The notes under the pieces are model-generated. The model was given only the letters and a program-made list of their open reading frames with translations. It made no database searches and was not told where the DNA came from. Below are positions 1,749-34,929 of a stretch of 35,255 bases of DNA, in pieces. Source of the DNA: a virus (lineage: Duplodnaviria > Heunggongvirae > Uroviricota > Caudoviricetes); the IMG/VR virus record IMGVR_UViG_2913147268_000009. One strand, 5' to 3'. A program made the translations under genes and the position numbers. The stretch's first letter is position 1; each line of letters starts with the position of its first letter.

Positions 1749-2058
1749 TCTTGACCTTGTGTTGTGCGGATTGATATTCAGTGCTGATATTCACCTTTAT
1801 AGCGAACACCTTTACCGGTTTATCGCCAAAGTGCGGATGTGTGATTGTCTTCACTTCATATCCGTCATACGGAACATCAATTCTGCGACTGGAATCGTCG
1901 CGCTTCGGATATCCCTTTGTGATAATCAGGCGGTCATATTCCCGGAACATAATTCGCTTATTCCAGTAGTCATTACACAAGCGATACTCTTCCGTTTTCT
2001 CTCCGCGAATCATGGCATCGAAGTATTCACTTTTAACAGCAAGTTGCAGGTTAGCCAT
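1732..2058 (-). CDS. ASCH/DUF3850-like domain protein
   Basis: N-terminal motif KSEYFDAMIRGEKTEEYR resembles ASCH-fold (PUA-like) proteins. ATG at 2058-2056 overlaps the stop of the upstream TraR-like gene (ATGA coupling). The ORF track starts 3 nt earlier at a GTG. Confidence 0.4.
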   Translation of the reverse strand: MANLQLAVKSEYFDAMIRGEKTEEYRLCNDYWNKRIMFREYDRLIITKGYPKRDDSSRRIDVPYDGYEVKTITHPHFGDKPVKVFAIKVNISTEYQSAQHKVKNVQSD

Positions 2059-2279
2059 CACTTAATCCCCCTTTGTTTGCGGATAAGCTCCAGATCTTGC
2101 TGGCAACTGGCGCAAGTCCGACAACCCTGAACGGCCAGGCGTCTTCGTTCATCTATCGGATCGCCACACTCACAACAATGAGTGGCAGATACAGCCAGGT
2201 AGTTCAGGCGGCGCATTTTTATTGCTGTGTTGCGCTGTAATTCTTCTATTTCTGATGCTGAATCAATGATGTCTGCCAT
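2058..2279 (-). CDS. TraR/DksA-family C4 zinc-finger protein
   Basis: 73 aa with paired CxxC motifs (CCECGDPIDE ... CRTCASC), typical of the phage TraR-like family. Confidence 0.7.
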   Translation of the reverse strand: MADIIDSASEIEELQRNTAIKMRRLNYLAVSATHCCECGDPIDERRRLAVQGCRTCASCQQDLELIRKQRGIK

Positions 2280-2377
2280 CTTTCATTAATCCCTGAACTG
2301 TTGGTTAATACGCTTGAGGGTGAATGCGAACAATAAAAAAGGAGCCTGTAGCTCCCTGATAATTTTGCTTTTCATGT

Positions 2378-2659
2378 TCATCGTTCCTTAAAGACGCCGT
2401 TTAACATGCCGATTGCCAGGCTTAAATGAGTCGGTGTGAATCCCTTCAGCGTTACCGTTTCGCGGTGCTTCTTCAGTACGCTACGGCAAATGTCATTGAC
2501 GTTTTTATCCGGAAACTGCTGTCTGACTTTTTTGATTTCAGAATTAGCCTGACGGGCAATGCTGCGAAGGGCATTTTCTTGCTGAGGTGTCACTGAACAA
2601 GCCCCATGTCGGCAAGCATAAGCACACAGAATATGAAGCCCGCTGCCAGAAAAATGCAT
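2378..2659 (-). CDS. Hypothetical protein (93 aa)
   Basis: ORF with ATG at 2659 in the xis-exo accessory region; no recognised domain. Confidence 0.35.
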   Translation of the reverse strand: MHFSGSGLHILCAYACRHGACSVTPQQENALRSIARQANSEIKKVRQQFPDKNVNDICRSVLKKHRETVTLKGFTPTHLSLAIGMLNGVFKER

Positions 2660-2669
2660 TCAGTGGTTG

Positions 2670-2861
2670 TCATACCTGGTCTCTCTCATCTGCTTCTGCT
2701 TTCGCCACCATCATTTCCAGCTTTTGTGAAAGGGATGTGGCTAACGTATGAAATTCTTCGTCTGTTTCTGCTGGTATTGGCACAAACCTGACTCCAATTT
2801 GAGCAAGGCTATGTGCCAAATCAATACTCGTTCTTAACTCAACAGGAGATGCTTTGTGCAT
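2670..2861 (-). CDS. Small protein resembling lambda orf63
   Basis: 63-aa ORF ([26 protein letters not shown]...) recalled as the lambda orf63 product, in the same position just upstream of exo. Confidence 0.45.
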   Translation of the reverse strand: MHKASPVELRTSIDLAHSLAQIGVRFVPIPAETDEEFHTLATSLSQKLEMMVAKAEADERDQV

Positions 2862-3022
2862 ACCGCCCCCCGTTTATTATTTATCTCCTCAGCCAGCCGC
2901 TGGGCTTTCAGCGGATTTCGGATAACAGAAAGACCGTGAAATACCCAGCCTCGCTTTGTAACGGAGTAGACGAAAGTGATCGCGCCTACCCGGATATTAT
3001 CGTGAGGATGGGTCATCGCCAT
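2834..3022 (-). CDS. Small protein (lambda orf60a position)
   Basis: 62-aa ORF immediately upstream of exo, overlapping the neighbouring small ORF; positional call only. Confidence 0.3.
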
Positions 3023-3693
3023 TGCTCTCCAAATACAAAACCAATTTCAGCCAGTGCTTCGTCCATTTTTTCGATGAACTCCGGCACCATCTCGTCAAAA
3101 CTCGCCATGTACTTTTCATCCCGCTCAACCACGACATAATGCAGGCCTTCACGCTTCATTCGTGGGTCATAGTTGGCAAAGTACCAGGCATCTTTTCGTG
3201 TCACCCACATGCTGTACTGCACCTGGGCCATGTAAGCCGACTTTATGGCCTCGAAACCACCGAGCCGGAACTTCATGAAATCCCGGGAGGTAAACGGGCA
3301 TTTCAGCTCAAGGCCATTGCCGTCACTGCATAAACCATCGGGAGAGCAGGCGGTGCGCATACTTTCGTCGCGATAGATGATCGGGGATTCAGTAACATTC
3401 ACGCCGGAAGTGAATTCAAACAGGGTTCTGGCGTCGTTCTCGTACTGTTTTCCCCACGCCAGCGCCTTAGCATTAACTTCCGGAGCCACACCGGTGCAAA
3501 CCTCAGCCAGCAGGGTGTGGAAGTAGGACATTTTCATGTCAGGCCACTTCTTTCCTGAGCGGGGCTTTGCTATCACGTTGTGAACTTCTGAAGCGGTGAT
3601 GACGCCGAGCCGTAATTTGTGCCATGCATCATCCCCCTGTTCGACAGCTCTCACGTCGATCCCGGTACGCTGCAGGATAATGTCCGGTGTCAT
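3013..3693 (-). CDS. exo: Lambda exonuclease (Red-alpha)
   Basis: 226-aa translation ([40 protein letters not shown]...GFVFGEQWR) is near-identical to recalled lambda Exo; start overlaps the bet stop. Confidence 0.97.
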
Positions 3694-4475
3694 GCTGCCA
3701 CCTTCTGCTCAGTGGCTTTCTGTTTCAGGAATCCAAGAGCTTTCACTGCTTCGGCCTGTGTCAGTTCTGACGATGCGCGAATGTCGCGGCGAAATATCTG
3801 GGAACAGAGCGGCAATAAGTCGTCATCCCATGTTTTGTCCAGGGCAATCAGCAGAGTGTTAATCTCCTGCATGGTTTCATCGTTAACCGGAGTGATGTCG
3901 CGTTCCGGCTGACGTTCCGCAGTGTATGCAGTATTTTCGACAATGCGCTCGGCTTCATCCTTGTCATAGATACCAGCAAATCCGAAGGCCAGACGGGCAC
4001 ACTGAATCATGGCTTTATGCCGTAACATCCGTTTGGGATGCGACTGCCACGGCCCCGTGATTTCTCTGCCTTCGCGAGTTTTGAATGGTTCGCGGCGGCA
4101 TTCATCCATCCATTCGGTAACGCAGATCGGATGATTGCGGTCTTTGCGGTAAATCCGGCACGTACATGATTCATTGTCCTGCTCAAAGTCCATGCCATCA
4201 AACTGCTGGTTTTCATTGATGATGCGGGACCAGCCATCAACGCCCACCACCGGAACGATGCCGTTCTGCTTATCAGGGAAGGCGTAAATTTCTTTCGTCC
4301 ACGGATTAAGGCCGTACTGGTTGGCGACGATCAGCAATGCGATGAACTGCGCATCGCTGGCATCACCTTTAAATGCCGTCTGACGAAGAGTGGTGATCAG
4401 TTCCTGTGGGTCGACAGAATCCATGCCGACACGTTCAGCCAGCTTCCCAGCCAGCGTTGCGAGTGCTGTACTCAT
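3690..4475 (-). CDS. bet: Red-beta single-strand annealing protein
   Basis: 261-aa translation ([59 protein letters not shown]...) matches recalled lambda Bet. Confidence 0.97.
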
Positions 4476-4480
4476 CCGTT

Positions 4481-4777
4481 TTATACCTCTGAATCAATAT
4501 CAACATGGTGGTGAGCAATGGTTTCAACCATGTACCGGATGTGTTCTGCCATGCGCTCCTGAAACTCAACATCGTCATCAAACGCACGGGTAATGGCTTT
4601 TTTGCTGGCCCCGCAGCGTTGCAAATGATCGATGCAGAGTGATTCAAACAGGTGCTGTGGAAGACCTTTTTCCATGTCGTCTGCCAGTTCTGCCTCTTTC
4701 TCTTCACGGGCGATCTGCTGGTAGTGACGCGCCCAGCTTTGAGCCTCAAGACGATCCTGAATGTAATAAGCGTTCAT
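4481..4777 (-). CDS. gam: Gam, RecBCD inhibitor (short GamS-length form)
   Basis: 98 aa ([54 protein letters not shown]...) matches lambda Gam from its internal start. The upstream in-frame region encodes FRSSAM but has no ATG before a stop, so only the short form is encoded. RBS AGGAG lies upstream. Confidence 0.93.
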
Positions 4778-4852
4778 GGCTGAACTCCTGAAAATGGCTG
4801 TGAAAATATCGCCTGCGAAATGCCGGGCTGATTAGGTAAACAGGAAAGGGGA

Positions 4853-5143
4853 TTAGTGATTCAGGCCGTTGCCGCGTCCGTCGAGAAAAACTTCCACGAG
4901 CAAATCACGGGTATAAGTGCGCTCGATGCCGCGATGCAGATAAAGCCGTCCGCGTAAATTAGCTGATGCAGTCCAGGTACCATCTTTGTGTTTGACCAGC
5001 ATTCCTGGCATGACCGCACCGCGATTAACGGTCTGCGTTCCGTAATGTTGATGAACCATAAAAACTCCTGCCCGTAAGCTGGGCTGCTGAACATATAGAG
5101 ACTTCTGCGCGTATTCAGGCGGTGGATGGCCGCCGGTTGTCAT
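4853..5143 (-). CDS. Hypothetical protein (96 aa), first ORF of the leftward pL operon
   Basis: ORF between the predicted pL/OL and gam; not arginine-rich at the N-terminus, so not N-like; no recognised domain. Confidence 0.35.
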
Positions 5144-5336
5144 AACTAAGCCGCCTCGTTGAAGCGACTAAGGTATGAAATGTTGAGTTAATTTCAGCTG
5201 GTCACACCGACGTTCACGCGTCCGTTTCACCCCTCGCACTCCCCGAAGCCTGCTGAAATTCAAACTGCGGATCTAAGCGGTCATCGCAACGGTGAATCAG
5301 GTAGTTGCCGTATCGTTGTGTTGTTGCGATGAACTT

Positions 5337-5396
5337 ATTTAAAACTATAGTTGTTTTATCGTCAACAACAAAAGTTGTTTTATTGGTTGTTTTAGA
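5337..5396 (-). promoter_or_regulatory. pL promoter with OL operator cluster
   Basis: On the minus strand: TTGACG, 17-nt spacer, TTAATA. Three operator-like sites with AACAAC/GTTGTT half-sites (for example AAAACAACTATAGTTTT) at about 24-bp spacing. Confidence 0.5.
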
Positions 5397-5501
5397 TATA
5401 ACTGGTTGTATTTAGGATGGATTTATTTTGTGACTTGAATCGCATAGCGATAACTGAAGCGAGGTTATGGTGGTTTTTTTAACGGTGTGTGTGATGAGGG
5501 G

Positions 5502-5531
5502 AGGGCAAAAGAAAACCCGGCACGGTGACCG
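5502..5531 (-). terminator. Candidate intrinsic terminator downstream of cI
   Basis: Minus-strand hairpin CCCGGTCACCGTGCCGGG followed by TTTTCTTTT, about 125 nt after the cI stop. Confidence 0.3.
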
Positions 5532-5654
5532 GGATTCTTACGCCGTTAGGTAAAGATATTATTGCGGTGGCTTAATATTACTACCTAGAGCAAAGATAGG
5601 AATTAGTTCTTTACTGAATGAGCACAATGCCCAGTTGATAATTTTTAATTGGTA

Positions 5655-6344
5655 CTACCCATGCTTCCTATATGTCTGCGGCATGCTCCCAATAACCTTA
5701 CCGAAGATGAACACCCGGTTCATCTCGTCTTTCTCGATCGGGTCCCACGGTGAGTAGCTTTTGTTATCAGAGATGACCAGCAGCTTATCCTTCATCATTT
5801 GCAGGCGCTTTACATGGGCTGTGTCGTCGTACAGAAACGCATAGATACCATCACCGTCGAAAGATTTAACTGTGATATCAACGAACAGCAGATCACCTGG
5901 TTCGATCGTTCCTGACATGCTGTCACCACGCACGTTAATGATGCGGATATTTTCCGCCTTCCTACCATCGAACATGTGACGAGCATCGTCAAACGAGTAC
6001 TCAACCGAGCGTAGAACTTCTACAAACTCACGGTTGATGACTCCCGGCCCAGCACTGACTTCTATATCAAGAACGTCAATCTTGAAGTATTTGGAATGGC
6101 TGACAGTTGATTGTATTGGTTGCACTGTACTGTCTGACATATTTCCAACGCCAGAAGATAACCATTCTGCGCGCACACCCAAAGCGTTCGCGATCTCCAC
6201 GATTTTAGTTGTTTGATTAGCTTTCCCTGTTTCGATTTTCTGAATAGCAGCCTGGCTAACCCCGACCAAATCCCCAAGCGCCTTTTGTGTAAGGCCTCGC
6301 GCTAATCTGGCTTCTTTAAGTCTTTCTGAGAGTGTTGTTTTCAT
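5655..6344 (-). CDS. cI: cI-like prophage repressor (HTH_XRE plus S24 LexA-like peptidase domain)
   Basis: Helix-turn-helix (LTQKALGDLVGVSQAAIQKIETGK) and C-terminal S24 autocleavage features (NVRGDSMSGTIEPGDLLFVD ... KRL). Likely start is MKTTLSERLK at 6344, essentially leaderless relative to the predicted pRM; the ORF track extends to 6410. Confidence 0.85.
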   Translation of the reverse strand: MKTTLSERLKEARLARGLTQKALGDLVGVSQAAIQKIETGKANQTTKIVEIANALGVRAEWLSSGVGNMSDSTVQPIQSTVSHSKYFKIDVLDIEVSAGPGVINREFVEVLRSVEYSFDDARHMFDGRKAENIRIINVRGDSMSGTIEPGDLLFVDITVKSFDGDGIYAFLYDDTAHVKRLQMMKDKLLVISDNKSYSPWDPIEKDEMNRVFIFGKVIGSMPQTYRKHG

Positions 6345-6350
6345 AGTCCA

Positions 6351-6421
6351 AATGTACAACCAAGGTTTTATTCCATCAAACGAAAATGGTTGTTGACTAA
6401 AAACAACCATAGTTTTAATCT
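6351..6421. promoter_or_regulatory. OR operators with divergent pR/pRM
   Basis: Three sites sharing the AACAACC core (ACAACCAAGGTTTT, AAAATGGTTGTTGAC, AAAACAACCATAGTTTT). pR reads TTGACT (about 6393-6398), 17-nt spacer, TAATCT, then the RBS GGAGG and cro ATG at 6449. Confidence 0.5.
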
Positions 6422-6448
6422 TGATTCAAATTAACCACGGAGGTTGTT

Positions 6449-6679
6449 ATGAACCCAGCTATCAAAACAGCGATCAATATCGTTGGTTCACAAAAGAAAC
6501 TGGGCGCTGCTTGCGAAGTTTCACAGCAGGCCGTCTATAAGTGGCTTCACAACAAAGCAAAGGTATCCCCTGAACATGTCGGCAGCATTGTTACGGCTAC
6601 TGGTGGAGTAGTGAAGGCATACCAGATTCGCCCGGATCTTCCGAAGTTGTTTCCACACACCGAAAAGAACGCAGCTTAA
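6449..6679 (+). CDS. cro: Cro-like HTH regulator
   Basis: 76-aa ORF divergent from cI with RBS GGAGG; HTH-like segment (KLGAACEVSQQAVYKWL). Confidence 0.8.
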   Translation: MNPAIKTAINIVGSQKKLGAACEVSQQAVYKWLHNKAKVSPEHVGSIVTATGGVVKAYQIRPDLPKLFPHTEKNAA

Positions 6680-6692
6680 ATTTCCATTTCAC

Positions 6693-6704
6693 GCTCTTTA
6701 ACAA
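6693..6704 (+). promoter_or_regulatory. boxA-like antitermination motif (nutR position)
   Basis: GCTCTTTAACAA immediately downstream of cro, matching the recalled rrn/lambda boxA consensus; no convincing boxB hairpin follows. Confidence 0.4.
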
Positions 6705-6748
6705 TAAGCAATCAACTTAACAGTCAATTCAAACTAAAGGAGTCAATT

Positions 6749-7288
6749 ATGCAACCACTTACATACCAACAGACTAGCGGATTTAGCCCGACTGCGGTGA
6801 TAAATCGTTCTCAAACAAAACAGGTGCCAGGCCACGAAAAAATCCGTGATGCCGTCCGCGCCTGGTCGGCTGTAGATAATCAGGATGTCGTTGCCACACT
6901 CATTGTGAATGAGTATCTGGAGCAGGGCGGCGGCACCATCGATTTCCCTGATGATGTCAGCCGTGCACGCCAGAAGCTGTTCCGCTTCCTCGATAACAAA
7001 TTCGATTCTGAAAAATACCGAAATAACGTGCGTGAACTGACCCCGGCAATTCTGGCGGTACTACCGCTGGAATATCGCGGTTACCTGGTTGAGCAGGATA
7101 GCTTCATGGCTAGGTTGGCTGAAATGGAAAAGGAACTCAGTGAGGCAAAACAGGCTGTCATTCTCAACGCACCACGCCACCAGAAACTGAAGGAAATTAG
7201 TGAAGGTATTGTGTCGATGTTTCGTGTGGACCCAGATCTGGCTGGTCCATTGATGGCGATGGTTACTACCATGCTGGGGGCGATATGA
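6749..7288 (+). CDS. YdaT-like protein in the cII position
   Basis: 179-aa ORF with RBS AAGGAG between cro and O; the cro-like then YdaT-like order is typical of Rac-type immunity regions. Family assignment is from recall only. Confidence 0.4.
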   Translation: MQPLTYQQTSGFSPTAVINRSQTKQVPGHEKIRDAVRAWSAVDNQDVVATLIVNEYLEQGGGTIDFPDDVSRARQKLFRFLDNKFDSEKYRNNVRELTPAILAVLPLEYRGYLVEQDSFMARLAEMEKELSEAKQAVILNAPRHQKLKEISEGIVSMFRVDPDLAGPLMAMVTTMLGAI

Positions 7289-7374
7289 CAGGTTCAGAAA
7301 TGGCGAAAGCCGGTCTGCTGGAACAGAACCGACTTTCAGGTGCAAATCGTAACACACTCATTGCGGGAGGAATT

Positions 7375-8304
7375 ATGGCAAACACTGCTGAGATATTCAA
7401 TTTTCCAGTGCCGGATGCGGCACAAAAGGAGCCGCGCGTGGCAGATCTCGATGATGGTTATACGCGCATTGCAAATGAGTTGCTGGAAGCTGTGATGCTG
7501 GCCGGATTAACACAGCACCAGCTTCTGGTCTTTCTGGCTGTCATGCGCAAAACATATGGCTTTAATAAAAAACTGGATTGGGTTAGCAACGAGCAACTTT
7601 CCGAATTAACCGGGATATTGCCGCACAAGTGTTCTGCTGCAAAAAGTGTTCTGGTAAAGCGTGGGATTTTTATTCAGAGCGGGCGGAATACCGGCATTAA
7701 TAATGTGGTCAGTGAATGGTCAACATTACCCGAATCAGGTAAGAAAAATAAAGTTTACCTGAAAGAGGTAAATTTACCTGAATCAGGTAAAAAAAGTTTA
7801 CCCAAATCAGGTAAAGGCGTTTACCCGAATCAGGTAAACACAAAAGACAAACTAACAAAAGACAATATAAAACCTTTTTCGTCCGAGAATTCTGGCGAAT
7901 CCTCTGACCAACCAGAAAACGATCTTCCTGTGGTGAAACCGGATGCTGCAATTCAGAGCGGCAGCAAGTGGGGGACAGCAGAAGACCTGACCGCCGCAGA
8001 GTGGATGTTTGACATGGTGAAGACCATCGCGCCATCAGCCAGAAAACCGAATTTTGCAGGGTGGGCTAACGATATCCGCCTGATGCGTGAACGTGACGGA
8101 CGTAACCACCGCGACATGTGCGTGCTGTTCCGCTGGGCATGCCAGGACAACTTCTGGTCCGGTAACGTGCTAAGTCCGGCCAAACTCCGCGACAAGTGGA
8201 CCCAACTCGAAATCAACCGTAACAAGCAACAGGCAGGCGTGACAGCTAGCAAACCAAAACTCGACCTGACAAACACAGACTGGATTTACGGGGTGGATCT
8301 ATGA
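7375..8304 (+). CDS. O: Replication initiator O
   Basis: N-terminus (MANTAEIFNF ... VADLDDGYTRIANELLEA ... RKTYGFNK) aligns by eye with lambda O; strong RBS GGGAGG before the ATG at 7375 (the ORF track starts at 7285). Contains internal iterons. Confidence 0.85.
   Translation: MANTAEIFNFPVPDAAQKEPRVADLDDGYTRIANELLEAVMLAGLTQHQLLVFLAVMRKTYGFNKKLDWVSNEQLSELTGILPHKCSAAKSVLVKRGIFIQSGRNTGINNVVSEWSTLPESGKKNKVYLKEVNLPESGKKSLPKSGKGVYPNQVNTKDKLTKDNIKPFSSENSGESSDQPENDLPVVKPDAAIQSGSKWGTAEDLTAAEWMFDMVKTIAPSARKPNFAGWANDIRLMRERDGRNHRDMCVLFRWACQDNFWSGNVLSPAKLRDKWTQLEINRNKQQAGVTASKPKLDLTNTDWIYGVDL
7726..7875. repeat. Replication origin: palindromic iterons plus AT-rich segment inside O
   Basis: Four to five copies of the 17-bp palindrome TTACC(C/T)(G/A)AATCAGGTAA at about 7726, 7774, 7798 and 7821 (a degenerate copy near 7756), with 23-24 bp spacing, followed by an A-rich stretch (7841-7875). 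Confidence 0.7.
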
Positions 8305-32756: not shown

Positions 32757-32912
32757 CTGTTGTGTCTTATCAGGCCTACGAGTTCAGTGCTGTGTGTAGG
32801 TCGGATAAGGCGCTCACGCCGCATCCGACAATAACAGCATTGCCTGATGCGACGCTGTTGTGTCTTATCAGGCCTACGAGTTCAGTGCTGTGTGTAGGTC
32901 GGATAAGGCGTA
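32757..32912. repeat. REP/BIME cluster
   Basis: Two copies of a unit containing GCCTGATGCGACGCTG..GTCTTATCAGGCCTAC and GTAGGTCGGATAAGGCGCTCACGCCGCATCCGAC-type palindromes, matching recalled E. coli REP consensus. Confidence 0.75.
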
Positions 32913-33313: not shown

Positions 33314-34099
33314 TCAGGCACGCTATTACCTGTTATTACTGGAAAAAGAAGGTGTGGTTCAGCGCTCTCCATTAAGGCGAGGCATGGCAACATACTGGCT
33401 TCTGAAAGGAGAGAAGCAGGCGGGGCAGAACTGTTCTTCCACAACTTAATAACTCAATCTGTGGGCATGCTTCACTGAAACAGATAAAAGTTACATCAGA
33501 GTGCAGATTCAGTTTTGCAGCATTCATCACAAAATAGAAATTTAGTATTTTATGTCAGAATACTTCACATGATAATAAAAACCTGTCTGGATTTACTGCA
33601 TGGCCAGACATTACAAAATACAAACGCCATAAACTTCATTCAGCCTTCTTGCTGTCCGGTAACGGAGGCTGCTTTTTCGTTACACCTTTCCCCGGCAGCA
33701 TCAGTAGCAGTAATTTATAGATTCTACGAACTGAGACTGTCTGTCCGGGGAGAACGTACACAGCCCGACACAATGTACCAGTCAATAATATCCGGTTTCT
33801 GATTCCCTGCCTGACAGACCACTCTCTGGCAACTTTGTATTCAGTTCATCTACTACTGGAGACAGATTTATAAAATCCAACTCCACGATCTTTGACCGTC
33901 CGCATCCCCTACTCTCTGTGCTGCGGTCATCGGTTAATTCCAGCGTCCGTCCGTTACGATCAGATATTACTGAACCGCCCCGGGTTTCCTGGAGAGTGTT
34001 TTATCTGTGAACTCAGGCTGCCAGATCATTGTTTCCGATGGAAGCATAATAAGCTTTTTCTGCTTCTGCCGGAGGAGTATGGCCCAGCCTTCCCAGCAA

Positions 34100-34929
34100 T
34101 CATCGATTGTTATACCAGTCCACCCACGTGAGTGTGGCCAGTTCCACTTCTGCACGGTNNNNNNNNNNNNNNNNNNNNNNNNNNNNNNNNNNNNNNNNNN
34201 NNNNNNNNNNNNNNNNNNNNNNNNNNNNNNNNNNNNNNNNNNNNNNNNNNNNNNNNNNNNNNNNNNNNNNNNNNNNNNNNNNNNNNNNNNNNNNNNNNNN
34301 NNNNNNNNNNNNNNNNNNNNNNNNNNNNNNNNNNNNNNNNNNNNNNNNNNNNNNNNNNNNNNNNNNNNNNNNNNNNNGCGGGCCCACAACGCCTGCTCCA
34401 GCGCATCCAGCACGAATGTCGTTTCCATAGACGATGAGACCCACCACCCCACGATGTATCCGGCAAACACATCAATGATGAACGCCACATAGACGAAGCC
34501 CTGCCATGTGCTGACGTAAGTAAAATCAGCCACCCACAGCTGGTCAGGACGTTCTGCCACGAACTGACGGTTTACGCGGTCACCTGCAGCAACGGTTTTC
34601 CGGCTGACGGTAGTGCGGACCTTTTTACCCCGGAGAACACCGGCAAGTCCCATAACCGCCATGAGGCGCGCCACTGTACATCTGGCCACCCTGATTCCTT
34701 CCCGTAACAACTGACGCCAGACTTTACGCACACCGTACACCTGATGATTTTCATCGTATACGCGCTGTATCTCTCTCTTCAGCCAGTCATCGCGCTGACA
34801 ACGGGCACTGCGTTTATCAGGATGATGCCGCTGCTGCTGACAATGGTAATACGTTGACGGGGCAATATGCTGTTCACTGCATACCGGTCCGACCCCGTAC
34901 TGCTCACGCAGCTTATCCAGCAGTGGCAT
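34100..34929 (-). CDS. IS629-like transposase OrfB (interrupted by the N-run)
   Basis: [24 protein letters not shown]...WVADFTYVSTWQGFVYVAFIIDVFAGYIVGW...LEQALWAR, then the N-run, then ...RAEVELATLTWVDWYNNR followed by TGA at 34102-34100. Frame across the gap is unverifiable. Confidence 0.65.
34159..34377. other. N-run, 219 nt, inside IS orfB
   Basis: Contiguous N characters; the hidden sequence is expected to resemble 14686-14880. Confidence 1.

What the first reader, a model, noticed from the sequence alone, without database searches (positions are those of the whole stretch)
6680..6748. rrn-type boxA motif downstream of cro without a visible N gene or boxB hairpin
GCTCTTTAACAA (about 6693-6704) matches the NusB/NusE-binding boxA consensus and sits exactly where nutR would be. 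However, no arginine-rich N-like ORF precedes the Red genes and no boxB stem-loop follows boxA. Antitermination here may be N-independent (RNA-based or host-factor only), use an unrecognised small protein, or be vestigial.
Basis: partly seen in the sequence, partly recalled or inferred. Interest (0 to 1): 0.45.

Follow-up and report, generated by a model that had tools for sequence, protein, structure and literature searches.

The report
Orphan boxA in N-less lambdoid prophage
A perfect host-factor binding motif (boxA) sits just after the cro gene of a lambda-like prophage that has no N protein and no boxB hairpin, and following it up exposed an unannotated, structured leader RNA on the opposite early operon, in the exact slot where a related phage carries its antiterminator RNA.

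Summary
GCTCTTTAACAA at 6693-6704 is an exact rrn-type boxA, 13 nt after the cro stop. It lies in a 69-nt unstructured, G-poor spacer before a YdaT-type cII analogue. No boxB hairpin, N homologue, second boxA or HK022-type put RNA is present.

Comparison shows a mosaic:
- This cro-boxA-ydaT allele is in 1523 of 5426 complete E. coli genomes and in the viable phage PhiR34_1.
- Sister phages with the same early genes (4A7 type) lack boxA entirely.
- Among 43 diverse ydaT loci only two others have it, both followed by hairpins, and one of those encodes an N-like protein.

I read it as an orphan nutR-type boxA. It most likely still loads NusB/NusE without N (anti-Rho, or suhB-like repression of ydaT), but it could be a relic.

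The larger result is on the left operon. From its first bases the pL transcript is a ~147-nt RNA with strong covariation. It is absent from Rfam and present in 2198 of 5426 E. coli genomes. In two relatives it replaces HK639 putL between near-identical flanks, and across 43 loci it never co-occurs with putL or a nutL-type boxA. It is a candidate new cis-acting antiterminator RNA; no function was tested.

The parts
6693..6704 (+). boxA, GCUCUUUAACAA. Exact rrn-type consensus; also fits the functional consensus GYTCTTTAANA.
   Evidence: consensus from Baniulyte et al. (10.1101/091223)
6680..6748 (+). cro-ydaT intercistronic spacer. 69 nt, A27 C15 G6 T21 (C>G, rut-like), unstructured. Shine-Dalgarno AAGGAG lies about 32 nt after boxA.
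6449..6679 (+). cro-like repressor gene (76 aa, phrog_35)
6749..7288 (+). cII analogue of the YdaT family (179 aa; phrog_163, PF06254). Distant match to solved YdaT 8bt1.
6386..6428 (+). OR operator palindrome and pR (TTGACT-17-TAATCT); transcript start about 6428
   Evidence: read from sequence; palindrome listed
5655..6344 (-). cI-type S24 repressor gene
5516..5533 (-). intrinsic terminator ending the cI transcript, upstream of pL
5337..5365 (-). pL promoter (TTGACG-17-TTAAAT) among operator repeats; inferred start about 5330
   Evidence: read from sequence. The same promoter-then-RNA arrangement is seen in all variants.
5185..5331 (-). pL-leader structured RNA. P1 5331-5323/5290-5282; P2 5279-5277/5237-5235; P3 5270-5265/5248-5243; P4 5231-5229/5202-5200; P5 5225-5219/5212-5206. 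Possible pseudoknot 5260-5252/5198-5190.
5089..5177 (-). kil-leader element: CAUACC, covarying hairpin (5169-5149), invariant 28 nt UUAUGACAACCGGCGGCCAUCCACCGCC (5145-5118), then GCGCAGAAGUCU. Its hairpin is annotated 'terminator' in HK639.
4853..5059 (-). kil (KilR-like, phrog_294), first gene of the pL operon, followed by gam, bet and exo
2339..2357 (-). strong intrinsic terminator inside the pL operon, between the recombination genes and xis/int
   Evidence: same site in PhiR34_1

Best explanation
The motif is a genuine nutR-type boxA that has lost its partners.

Shown:
- It is an exact consensus NusB/NusE site in single-stranded, G-poor RNA, 13 nt after cro. This is the slot where N-encoding relatives with the same cII-type gene carry boxA plus boxB-like hairpins.
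- This phage lineage has no N, no boxB, no boxA on pL and no HK022-type put.

Inferred:
- RNA polymerase leaving cro transcribes boxA. NusB-NusE bind it and, with NusA, NusG and SuhB, tether it to the polymerase, as at rrn and CRISPR leaders.
- This hides the overlapping rut-like spacer and occupies NusG, which protects the ~8-kb right operon from Rho.
- In the intact sister phage PhiR34_1 that operon has no strong intrinsic terminator before Q, so a Rho-only antiterminator would suffice.
- The effect is modulatory rather than essential, because 4A7-type sisters lack boxA.
- Intrinsic terminators exist only on the left operon. That operon begins with a separate, covarying ~147-nt RNA in the slot HK639 uses for putL, and I infer it is that operon's cis-acting antiterminator.
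For: - Exact 12/12 match, unique in the window and unique in the 44.6-kb phage PhiR34_1.
- Unpaired context; spacer has 6 G against 15 C.
- The strict motif occurs 4 times in 707 kb of 43 ydaT loci counted on both strands. Two of the four lie in the ~160-nt post-cro slot.
- L093 has boxA plus a hairpin at both nutR and nutL positions and a phrog_271 N-like ORF. L107 has lambda N and lambda nutR.
- A related cro in Salmonella phage UPF_BP1 is followed by HK022 putR, so this slot swaps antitermination cassettes.
- The identical module is in viable phage PhiR34_1 (99.7%) and in 1523/5426 E. coli genomes.
- PhiR34_1 has no strong + strand intrinsic terminator from pR to Q, but strong ones on the pL strand.
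- BoxA acting without N is documented for suhB and a ParE-like toxin gene (10.1101/091223) and for CRISPR arrays (PMC7665894, abstract).
- Leader RNA: 86% of cells paired, 12 pairs with double changes, covariation score 0.336 against 0.152 in shuffles (0/500), slid controls at most 0.086.
- Cassette swap with putL between >95% identical flanks.
- Among 43 loci it never co-occurs with putL or a nutL-type boxA.
Against: - No binding or read-through data exist.
- 4A7-type sisters (11 of 80 IMG/VR loci) and most ydaT phages, including putL-only and phi80-type ones, have no post-cro boxA. They carry a 30-nt spacer with a GC hairpin instead. The element is therefore not required.
- The boxA allele is nearly clonal, so conservation says nothing about selection.
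- In the two characterised mRNA contexts (suhB, CKO_00699) boxA repressed expression rather than antiterminating.
- The window's own prophage is degraded after gene P and lacks the nin-Q region.
- The leader RNA's function is inferred from position only.
Confidence: 0.42

Rival explanations
1. Non-functional relic. The cro allele came by module exchange from an N-encoding phage and the boxB part of nutR was lost. boxA persists only because the allele is young, and it has no measurable effect.
For: - Sister phages do without it.
- boxA-bearing relatives pair it with hairpins and, in L093, with N.
- The allele is almost clonal, so there has been no time to decay.
- The slot is a recombination hot spot.
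Against: - All 12 positions are perfect, a better match than lambda's own boxA.
- The allele is the commonest one: 69 of 80 IMG/VR loci and 28% of E. coli genomes.
- A consensus boxA in unstructured RNA would be expected to bind NusB/E, from established knowledge of that complex.
- No donor sequence with the same spacer plus boxB was found.
Confidence: 0.3
2. suhB-type attenuator. The Nus complex assembled on boxA loops the RNA to the polymerase and blocks ribosome access to the ydaT Shine-Dalgarno sequence 32 nt downstream. This lowers cII-analogue synthesis and promotes Rho polarity on O and P, tuning the lysis-lysogeny choice to Nus-factor availability.
For: - boxA lies within 50 nt of the ydaT start codon, the search criterion of Baniulyte et al.
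- In their work repression persisted with up to 100 nt between boxA and the Shine-Dalgarno sequence, and it applied to a non-Nus gene.
- The spacer is rut-like.
Against: - ydaT has a strong AAGGAG Shine-Dalgarno sequence.
- Repressing O and P would be costly for lytic growth.
- No comparative support: other alleles have tight cro-ydaT spacing.
Confidence: 0.2
3. An N-type system after all. Either N is supplied in trans by a co-resident prophage, or an unrecognised N analogue and RNA signal are present.
For: E. coli strains often carry several lambdoid prophages (general knowledge). The phi80-type 'N' is not recognisable as N by PHROG annotation (phrog_25091, unknown function), so N-like proteins can be missed.
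Against: - No boxB-like hairpin within the pR leader.
- No boxA on pL.
- No N-like ORF by PHROG or tblastn.
- PhiR34_1 grows on K-12 MG1655 according to its record.
Confidence: 0.05
4. Chance occurrence of a 12-mer in AT-rich spacer DNA.
For: The spacer is A/T-rich. With 2 mismatches allowed, matches are common.
Against: The exact match is expected 0.003 times per window. It lies in the one slot where nutR sits, and the same CGCTCTTTAACA recurs in that slot in two unrelated alleles.
Confidence: 0.03

Closest known systems
Lambda/P22-type nutR site (boxA + boxB, read by N with NusA/B/E/G)
   Same: Position directly after cro and before the cII-type gene. The boxA sequence overlaps a rut-like, G-poor spacer, as at lambda tR1.
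   Different: No boxB hairpin, no N gene, no matching nutL. Sister phages lack the site.
rrn leader/spacer boxA and CRISPR-array leader boxA (N-independent Nus complex with SuhB)
   Same: Exact rrn consensus GCUCUUUAACAA, no phage protein needed, and only Rho-type termination to overcome on this operon.
   Different: Those elements precede untranslated RNA. This one is intercistronic in an mRNA, with no boxC or boxB neighbours, and function is untested.
suhB and CKO_00699 5'-UTR boxA (Baniulyte et al. 2017)
   Same: An orphan boxA less than 50 nt upstream of a start codon, overlapping a pyrimidine-rich rut-like stretch.
   Different: Those repress the downstream gene. Here the direction of the effect is unknown, and an upstream gene is translated to within 13 nt of boxA.
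HK022 putL/putR and HK639 putL (cis-acting antiterminator RNAs binding the RNA polymerase beta' zinc-binding domain)
   Same: The pL-leader RNA starts within a few nt of the pL start. It is about 100-150 nt with two covarying stem-loops and conserved junctions. It sits upstream of the same kil-leader and terminator region, and in L090/L108 it replaces putL between the same flanks.
   Different: No sequence or covariance-model similarity to put (at most 8.3 bits). Different conserved motifs (GACCGCUUAGA, GAGUGCGAGGGGUGAAA, GUGACCA). Only one copy per genome. Mechanism untested.
phi80-type early region (nutL boxA GCUUUUUAACA, N, tL1A/tL1B, kil)
   Same: Same YdaT-type cII, same kil-leader element downstream, same overall operon layout.
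   Different: phi80 carries N and a nutL boxA on pL and no boxA after cro. The window has the reverse arrangement.

Membership tests
N-dependent nut site (lambda, P22, 21, phi80 types) | boxA sequence that can bind NusB/NusE | tested here: met
   12/12 match to the rrn consensus
N-dependent nut site (lambda, P22, 21, phi80 types) | boxB stem-loop a few nt downstream of boxA | tested here: not met
   No hairpin; -5 kcal/mol, z = +0.37; z = +0.56 over the whole leader
N-dependent nut site (lambda, P22, 21, phi80 types) | N gene as the first gene of the pL operon | tested here: not met
   ORF-free leader, then kil; PHROG; tblastn with three N types
N-dependent nut site (lambda, P22, 21, phi80 types) | Cognate nutL on the pL transcript | tested here: not met
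   No other boxA within 2 mismatches in the window
N-independent BoxA element (rrn, CRISPR leader, suhB) | Perfect match to GYTCTTTAANA with C at position 4 | tested here: met
   GCTCTTTAACA; consensus
N-independent BoxA element (rrn, CRISPR leader, suhB) | Single-stranded presentation in the nascent RNA | tested here: met
   Predicted unpaired; prediction only
N-independent BoxA element (rrn, CRISPR leader, suhB) | NusB/NusE/SuhB recruitment and a boxA-dependent change in Rho termination or translation | not testable with these tools
   Needs ChIP and reporter fusions
N-independent BoxA element (rrn, CRISPR leader, suhB) | Conservation of the element across diverged relatives | tested here: not met
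   Absent in 4A7-type sisters and in 40 of 43 ydaT loci
HK022 put RNA family | Sequence and structure match to putL/putR | tested here: not met
   Model R1 built from 9 puts: 88-99 bits on controls; at most 8.3 bits (E > 1) in the window and sister loci
HK022 put RNA family | Location at the start of the early transcript, upstream of terminators | tested here: met
   For the pL-leader RNA only. Nothing equivalent on pR.
HK022 put RNA family | Protein-independent antitermination that depends on the beta' zinc-binding domain | not testable with these tools
   Needs rpoC mutants or in vitro transcription
Structured cis-regulatory RNA (generic) | Compensatory base changes supporting helices | tested here: met
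   P3 6/6 and P5 5/6 pairs with changes on both sides; 0/500 shuffles reach the score
Any Rfam 15 family | Covariance-model hit over 4800-7300 | tested here: not met
   Only chance-level hits (E >= 0.87)

The most novel reading that the evidence does not exclude
This very common E. coli prophage type may run both early operons without any phage antitermination protein, using two different cis elements.
- On pL: a previously undescribed ~147-nt structured RNA, unrelated in sequence to put. It would be a third class of lambdoid early antiterminator, alongside N/nut and put.
- On pR: a bare consensus boxA that recruits the host rrn-type Nus complex.
Probability: 0.3. Interest if true: 0.8.

Novelty: new variant of a known kind. 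Interest (0 to 1): 0.6.

Why it matters
Early antitermination in lambdoid phages is textbook material with two known solutions: the N protein with nut sites, and put RNA. N-less lambdoids are usually assumed to be put-like (for example PMC12315714). In this case put is demonstrably absent.

Two testable elements remain:
- An orphan consensus boxA in an mRNA. It would extend N-independent Nus-factor regulation to a phage decision circuit present in more than a quarter of sequenced E. coli.
- An unannotated covarying RNA in the putL slot, present in about 40% of complete E. coli genomes. If it is an antiterminator, it offers a new RNA that reprograms RNA polymerase. It would also help explain how these prophages express kil, the Red genes and int/xis.

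Tried and rejected
1. HK022 put. blastn of putL/putR against the window found nothing. A covariance model from 9 put sequences found nothing either, while controls scored 88-99 bits.
2. A second copy of the pL leader or of the new RNA on the pR side. None by blastn or by model R2 with filters off, in the window and in the full PhiR34_1 genome.
3. An N-like protein. The 31-aa TTG ORF with RGVKRTRERR (5168-5263, minus strand) is rejected. It has no Shine-Dalgarno sequence and no PHROG hit. It lies inside the RNA, and variants carry stops and non-triplet indels.
4. A coding reading of MTTGGHPPP (ATG at 5143). Downstream conservation is at nucleotide level, in different frames and with non-triplet indels.
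5. AgvB-like anti-sRNA. AgvB lies downstream of PR', not at pL. Only a 12-nt GcvB complement was seen.
6. Rfam. No family matched.
7. Selection on boxA from within-allele variation. The allele is too clonal; the only variant found is a 12-nt duplication downstream of boxA.
8. A donor phage with the same spacer plus boxB. None in the phage collection. Alignment with the L093, L098 and L107 spacers was inconclusive.
9. King et al. 2011 (PMC3187212), on put-like RNAs and HK639, could not be read.

Full report
**Context.** The window is a lambdoid prophage of the Bievrevirus/DLP12-like kind.
- Positions 2100-8992 are 98.6% identical to the viable phage PhiR34_1. The queried stretch 4800-7300 is 99.7% identical.
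- The layout is: int, xis, small ORFs, exo, bet, gam and kil on the minus strand; a 270-nt ORF-free leader; pL; a terminator; cI; OR/pR; cro; a 69-nt spacer; a 179-aa YdaT-family cII analogue; then O and P.
- After P the prophage is rearranged and lacks the nin-Q region. PhiR34_1 keeps that region, with Q at 14657.

**The observation.**
- GCTCTTTAACAA at 6693-6704 is exact and unique in the window. About 0.003 exact matches are expected per window.
- It starts 13 nt after the cro stop. The Shine-Dalgarno AAGGAG of ydaT lies about 32 nt further on.
- The spacer has 6 G against 15 C and no predicted structure.
- No boxB hairpin, no N and no second boxA are present.
- An arginine-rich 31-aa frame in the pL leader is an artefact of a G-rich structured RNA.

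**Comparative picture for boxA.**
- The cro-boxA-ydaT allele is nearly clonal and very common. It is in 1523 of 5426 complete E. coli genomes and in 69 of 80 IMG/VR loci retrieved with the YdaT protein.
- The other 11 IMG/VR loci, and phage 4A7, carry a different cro and a 30-nt spacer with no boxA anywhere in 8.5 kb. Their pL leader and downstream genes are the same.
- In 43 diverse ydaT loci from other Enterobacteriaceae, most spacers carry a GCCGC-loop-GCGGC hairpin over the cro stop. phi80 and HK639 do the same.
- Only L093 and L098 have the strict boxA there, and both follow it with hairpins.
- L093 repeats a boxA-like sequence and the same hairpin on pL, and it encodes a phrog_271 N-like protein.
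- L107 has true lambda N and lambda nutR.
- A related cro in Salmonella phage UPF_BP1 is followed by HK022 putR.
- The strict motif occurs 4 times in 707 kb (both strands), and two of these are in this ~160-nt slot.
- The slot after cro is therefore an exchange site for antitermination cassettes. The window carries half of a nutR.

**What there is to antiterminate.**
- In PhiR34_1 the + strand from pR to Q has no strong intrinsic terminator.
- The pL strand has strong ones after exo, and the window keeps one at 2339-2357.
- A Rho-only, Nus-factor mechanism would therefore be enough on the right. The left operon would need a processive antiterminator.

**HK022-type put.** A covariance model from nine put RNAs scores 88-99 bits on HK639, UPF_BP1 and three genome loci. 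It scores at most 8.3 bits in the window and its sisters.

**The pL leader RNA.**
- The leader is conserved from the first transcribed bases across different immunities.
- A pattern scan found at least 120 IMG/VR contigs with 32 distinct cores of about 8 sequence types. One further pattern match (L257) was set aside as a chance hit; in the 12 variants whose upstream flank was examined, the element lies directly after a sigma-70 promoter.
- The fold has these parts:
  - P1: a closing CAUC/GAUG helix around a variable insert.
  - The conserved stretch ACCGCUUAGA.
  - P3: a stem-loop.
  - The conserved stretch GAGUGCGAGGGGUGAAA.
  - P5: a stem-loop with an invariant G.G and a UGAGAG-type loop.
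  - The conserved stretch GUGACCA.
  - Invariant CGC/GCG and GGU/ACC pairs that close the two domains.
- On 17 sequences, 86% of cells pair. All 6 P3 pairs and 5 of 6 P5 pairs show changes on both sides. The covariation score is 0.336 against 0.152 in shuffles (0 of 500 reach it), and slid controls reach at most 0.086.
- Non-triplet indels and stop codons exclude a coding reading.
- Rfam has no match.
- There is one copy per genome. It is in 2198 of 5426 E. coli genomes and is unannotated in the records listed.

**The cassette swap.**
- In L090 and L108 the sequences on both sides of this RNA are more than 95% identical to the sequences flanking putL in HK639. The central ~100 nt are unrelated.
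- Across 43 loci, the new RNA (3 loci), putL (3 loci) and a phi80-type nutL boxA (15 loci) never co-occur.
- This positional equivalence is my basis for proposing a put-like role. It is inference, not demonstration.

**Mechanism for boxA.**
- Known Nus biology gives two precedents without N.
  - Anti-Rho modification upstream of untranslated RNA, as at rrn and CRISPR leaders.
  - Translational repression followed by Rho termination when boxA precedes a Shine-Dalgarno sequence by up to 100 nt, as at suhB and a ParE-like toxin gene.
- I favour N-independent Nus loading with an anti-Rho outcome (confidence 0.42).
- The alternatives are a relic (0.3), a suhB-like attenuator of ydaT (0.2), a hidden or trans-acting N (0.05) and chance (0.03).
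- Dispensability in sister phages caps any claim of essential function.

**Verdict.** The boxA itself is a modest new variant of a known element. The leader RNA found while checking it is the more interesting lead.

Noticed in passing
window 5185-5331 (minus strand): Unannotated, covarying ~147-nt RNA at the 5' end of the pL transcript. It has no Rfam match, is present in 2198/5426 E. coli genomes, and occupies the HK639 putL slot in relatives.
   Followed up: yes
window 5089-5177 (minus strand); also L002, L005-L009 and many genome loci: kil-leader element: a covarying hairpin with an invariant GAG, then an invariant 28 nt UUAUGACAACCGGCGGCCAUCCACCGCC (it would begin a short [12 protein letters not shown]), then GCGCAGAAGUCU. 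It is conserved upstream of kil in N-type, put-type and new-RNA phages. The hairpin is annotated 'terminator' in HK639. Its function is unknown.
   Followed up: partly
window 5315-5326 (minus strand): CAACAACACAAC in the P1 stem and loop of the leader RNA is the exact complement of GUUGUGUUGUUG. That 12-mer lies in a 53-nt sequence found between gcvA and ygdI in 5425/5426 E. coli genomes. I identify that locus and its seed (R1) region as gcvB from memory; no feature is annotated there. The match is reminiscent of GcvB sponges such as AgvB, but it occurs only in this sequence type of the RNA.
   Followed up: partly
L004 4755-4775; L264 1210-1230; L268 253-270; most of L090-L133: In most YdaT-type phages the cro stop codon sits in the loop of a conserved GCCGC-(5-8 nt)-GCGGC hairpin, followed by CCUAACCACGAAAGGGAAAGCAAUG. 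The window allele lacks it and has boxA instead. Its function is unknown. The same hairpin with a U-tract is terminator tL1A in phi80.
   Followed up: partly
window 9252-11422: A 549-aa fragment matching the first third of a 1642-position PHROG family of unknown function (I took it for intimin/invasin-like). It is followed by an inverted partial duplicate (10877-11422, minus strand), placed where ren and the nin region should be.
   Followed up: no
window 9002-16500: The prophage is rearranged after gene P. No ren, nin genes or Q were seen. There are unrelated ORFs, a tail-gene fragment (14269-14544) and an inverted 167-bp piece matching the PhiR34_1 J-gene region (12978-13144), before the lysis genes resume at about 16513.
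   Followed up: partly
window 32799-32874, 33600-33778, 33967-35255: Rfam hits at the right end: a REP-type naRNA4, an AS-pc02-like antisense RNA, and the ALIL frameshift pseudoknot, which I read as marking an IS3-family element interrupting the tail region.
   Followed up: no
L098 about 2160-2254 and L125 about 2010-2102 (minus strand): Two prophages share a pL leader with boxA (GCUUUUUAACA or GCUCUUUAACA), then a conserved ~60 nt ending in a CACG-(A)GAAA-CGUG hairpin. No recognisable N was found downstream. This may be another nutL type.
   Followed up: no
L265 2778-2789 (E. coli PEC403): The only spacer variant found is a 12-nt tandem duplication (TTAACAGACTGA) downstream of boxA. It leaves boxA intact and lengthens the spacer to 81 nt.
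   Followed up: no
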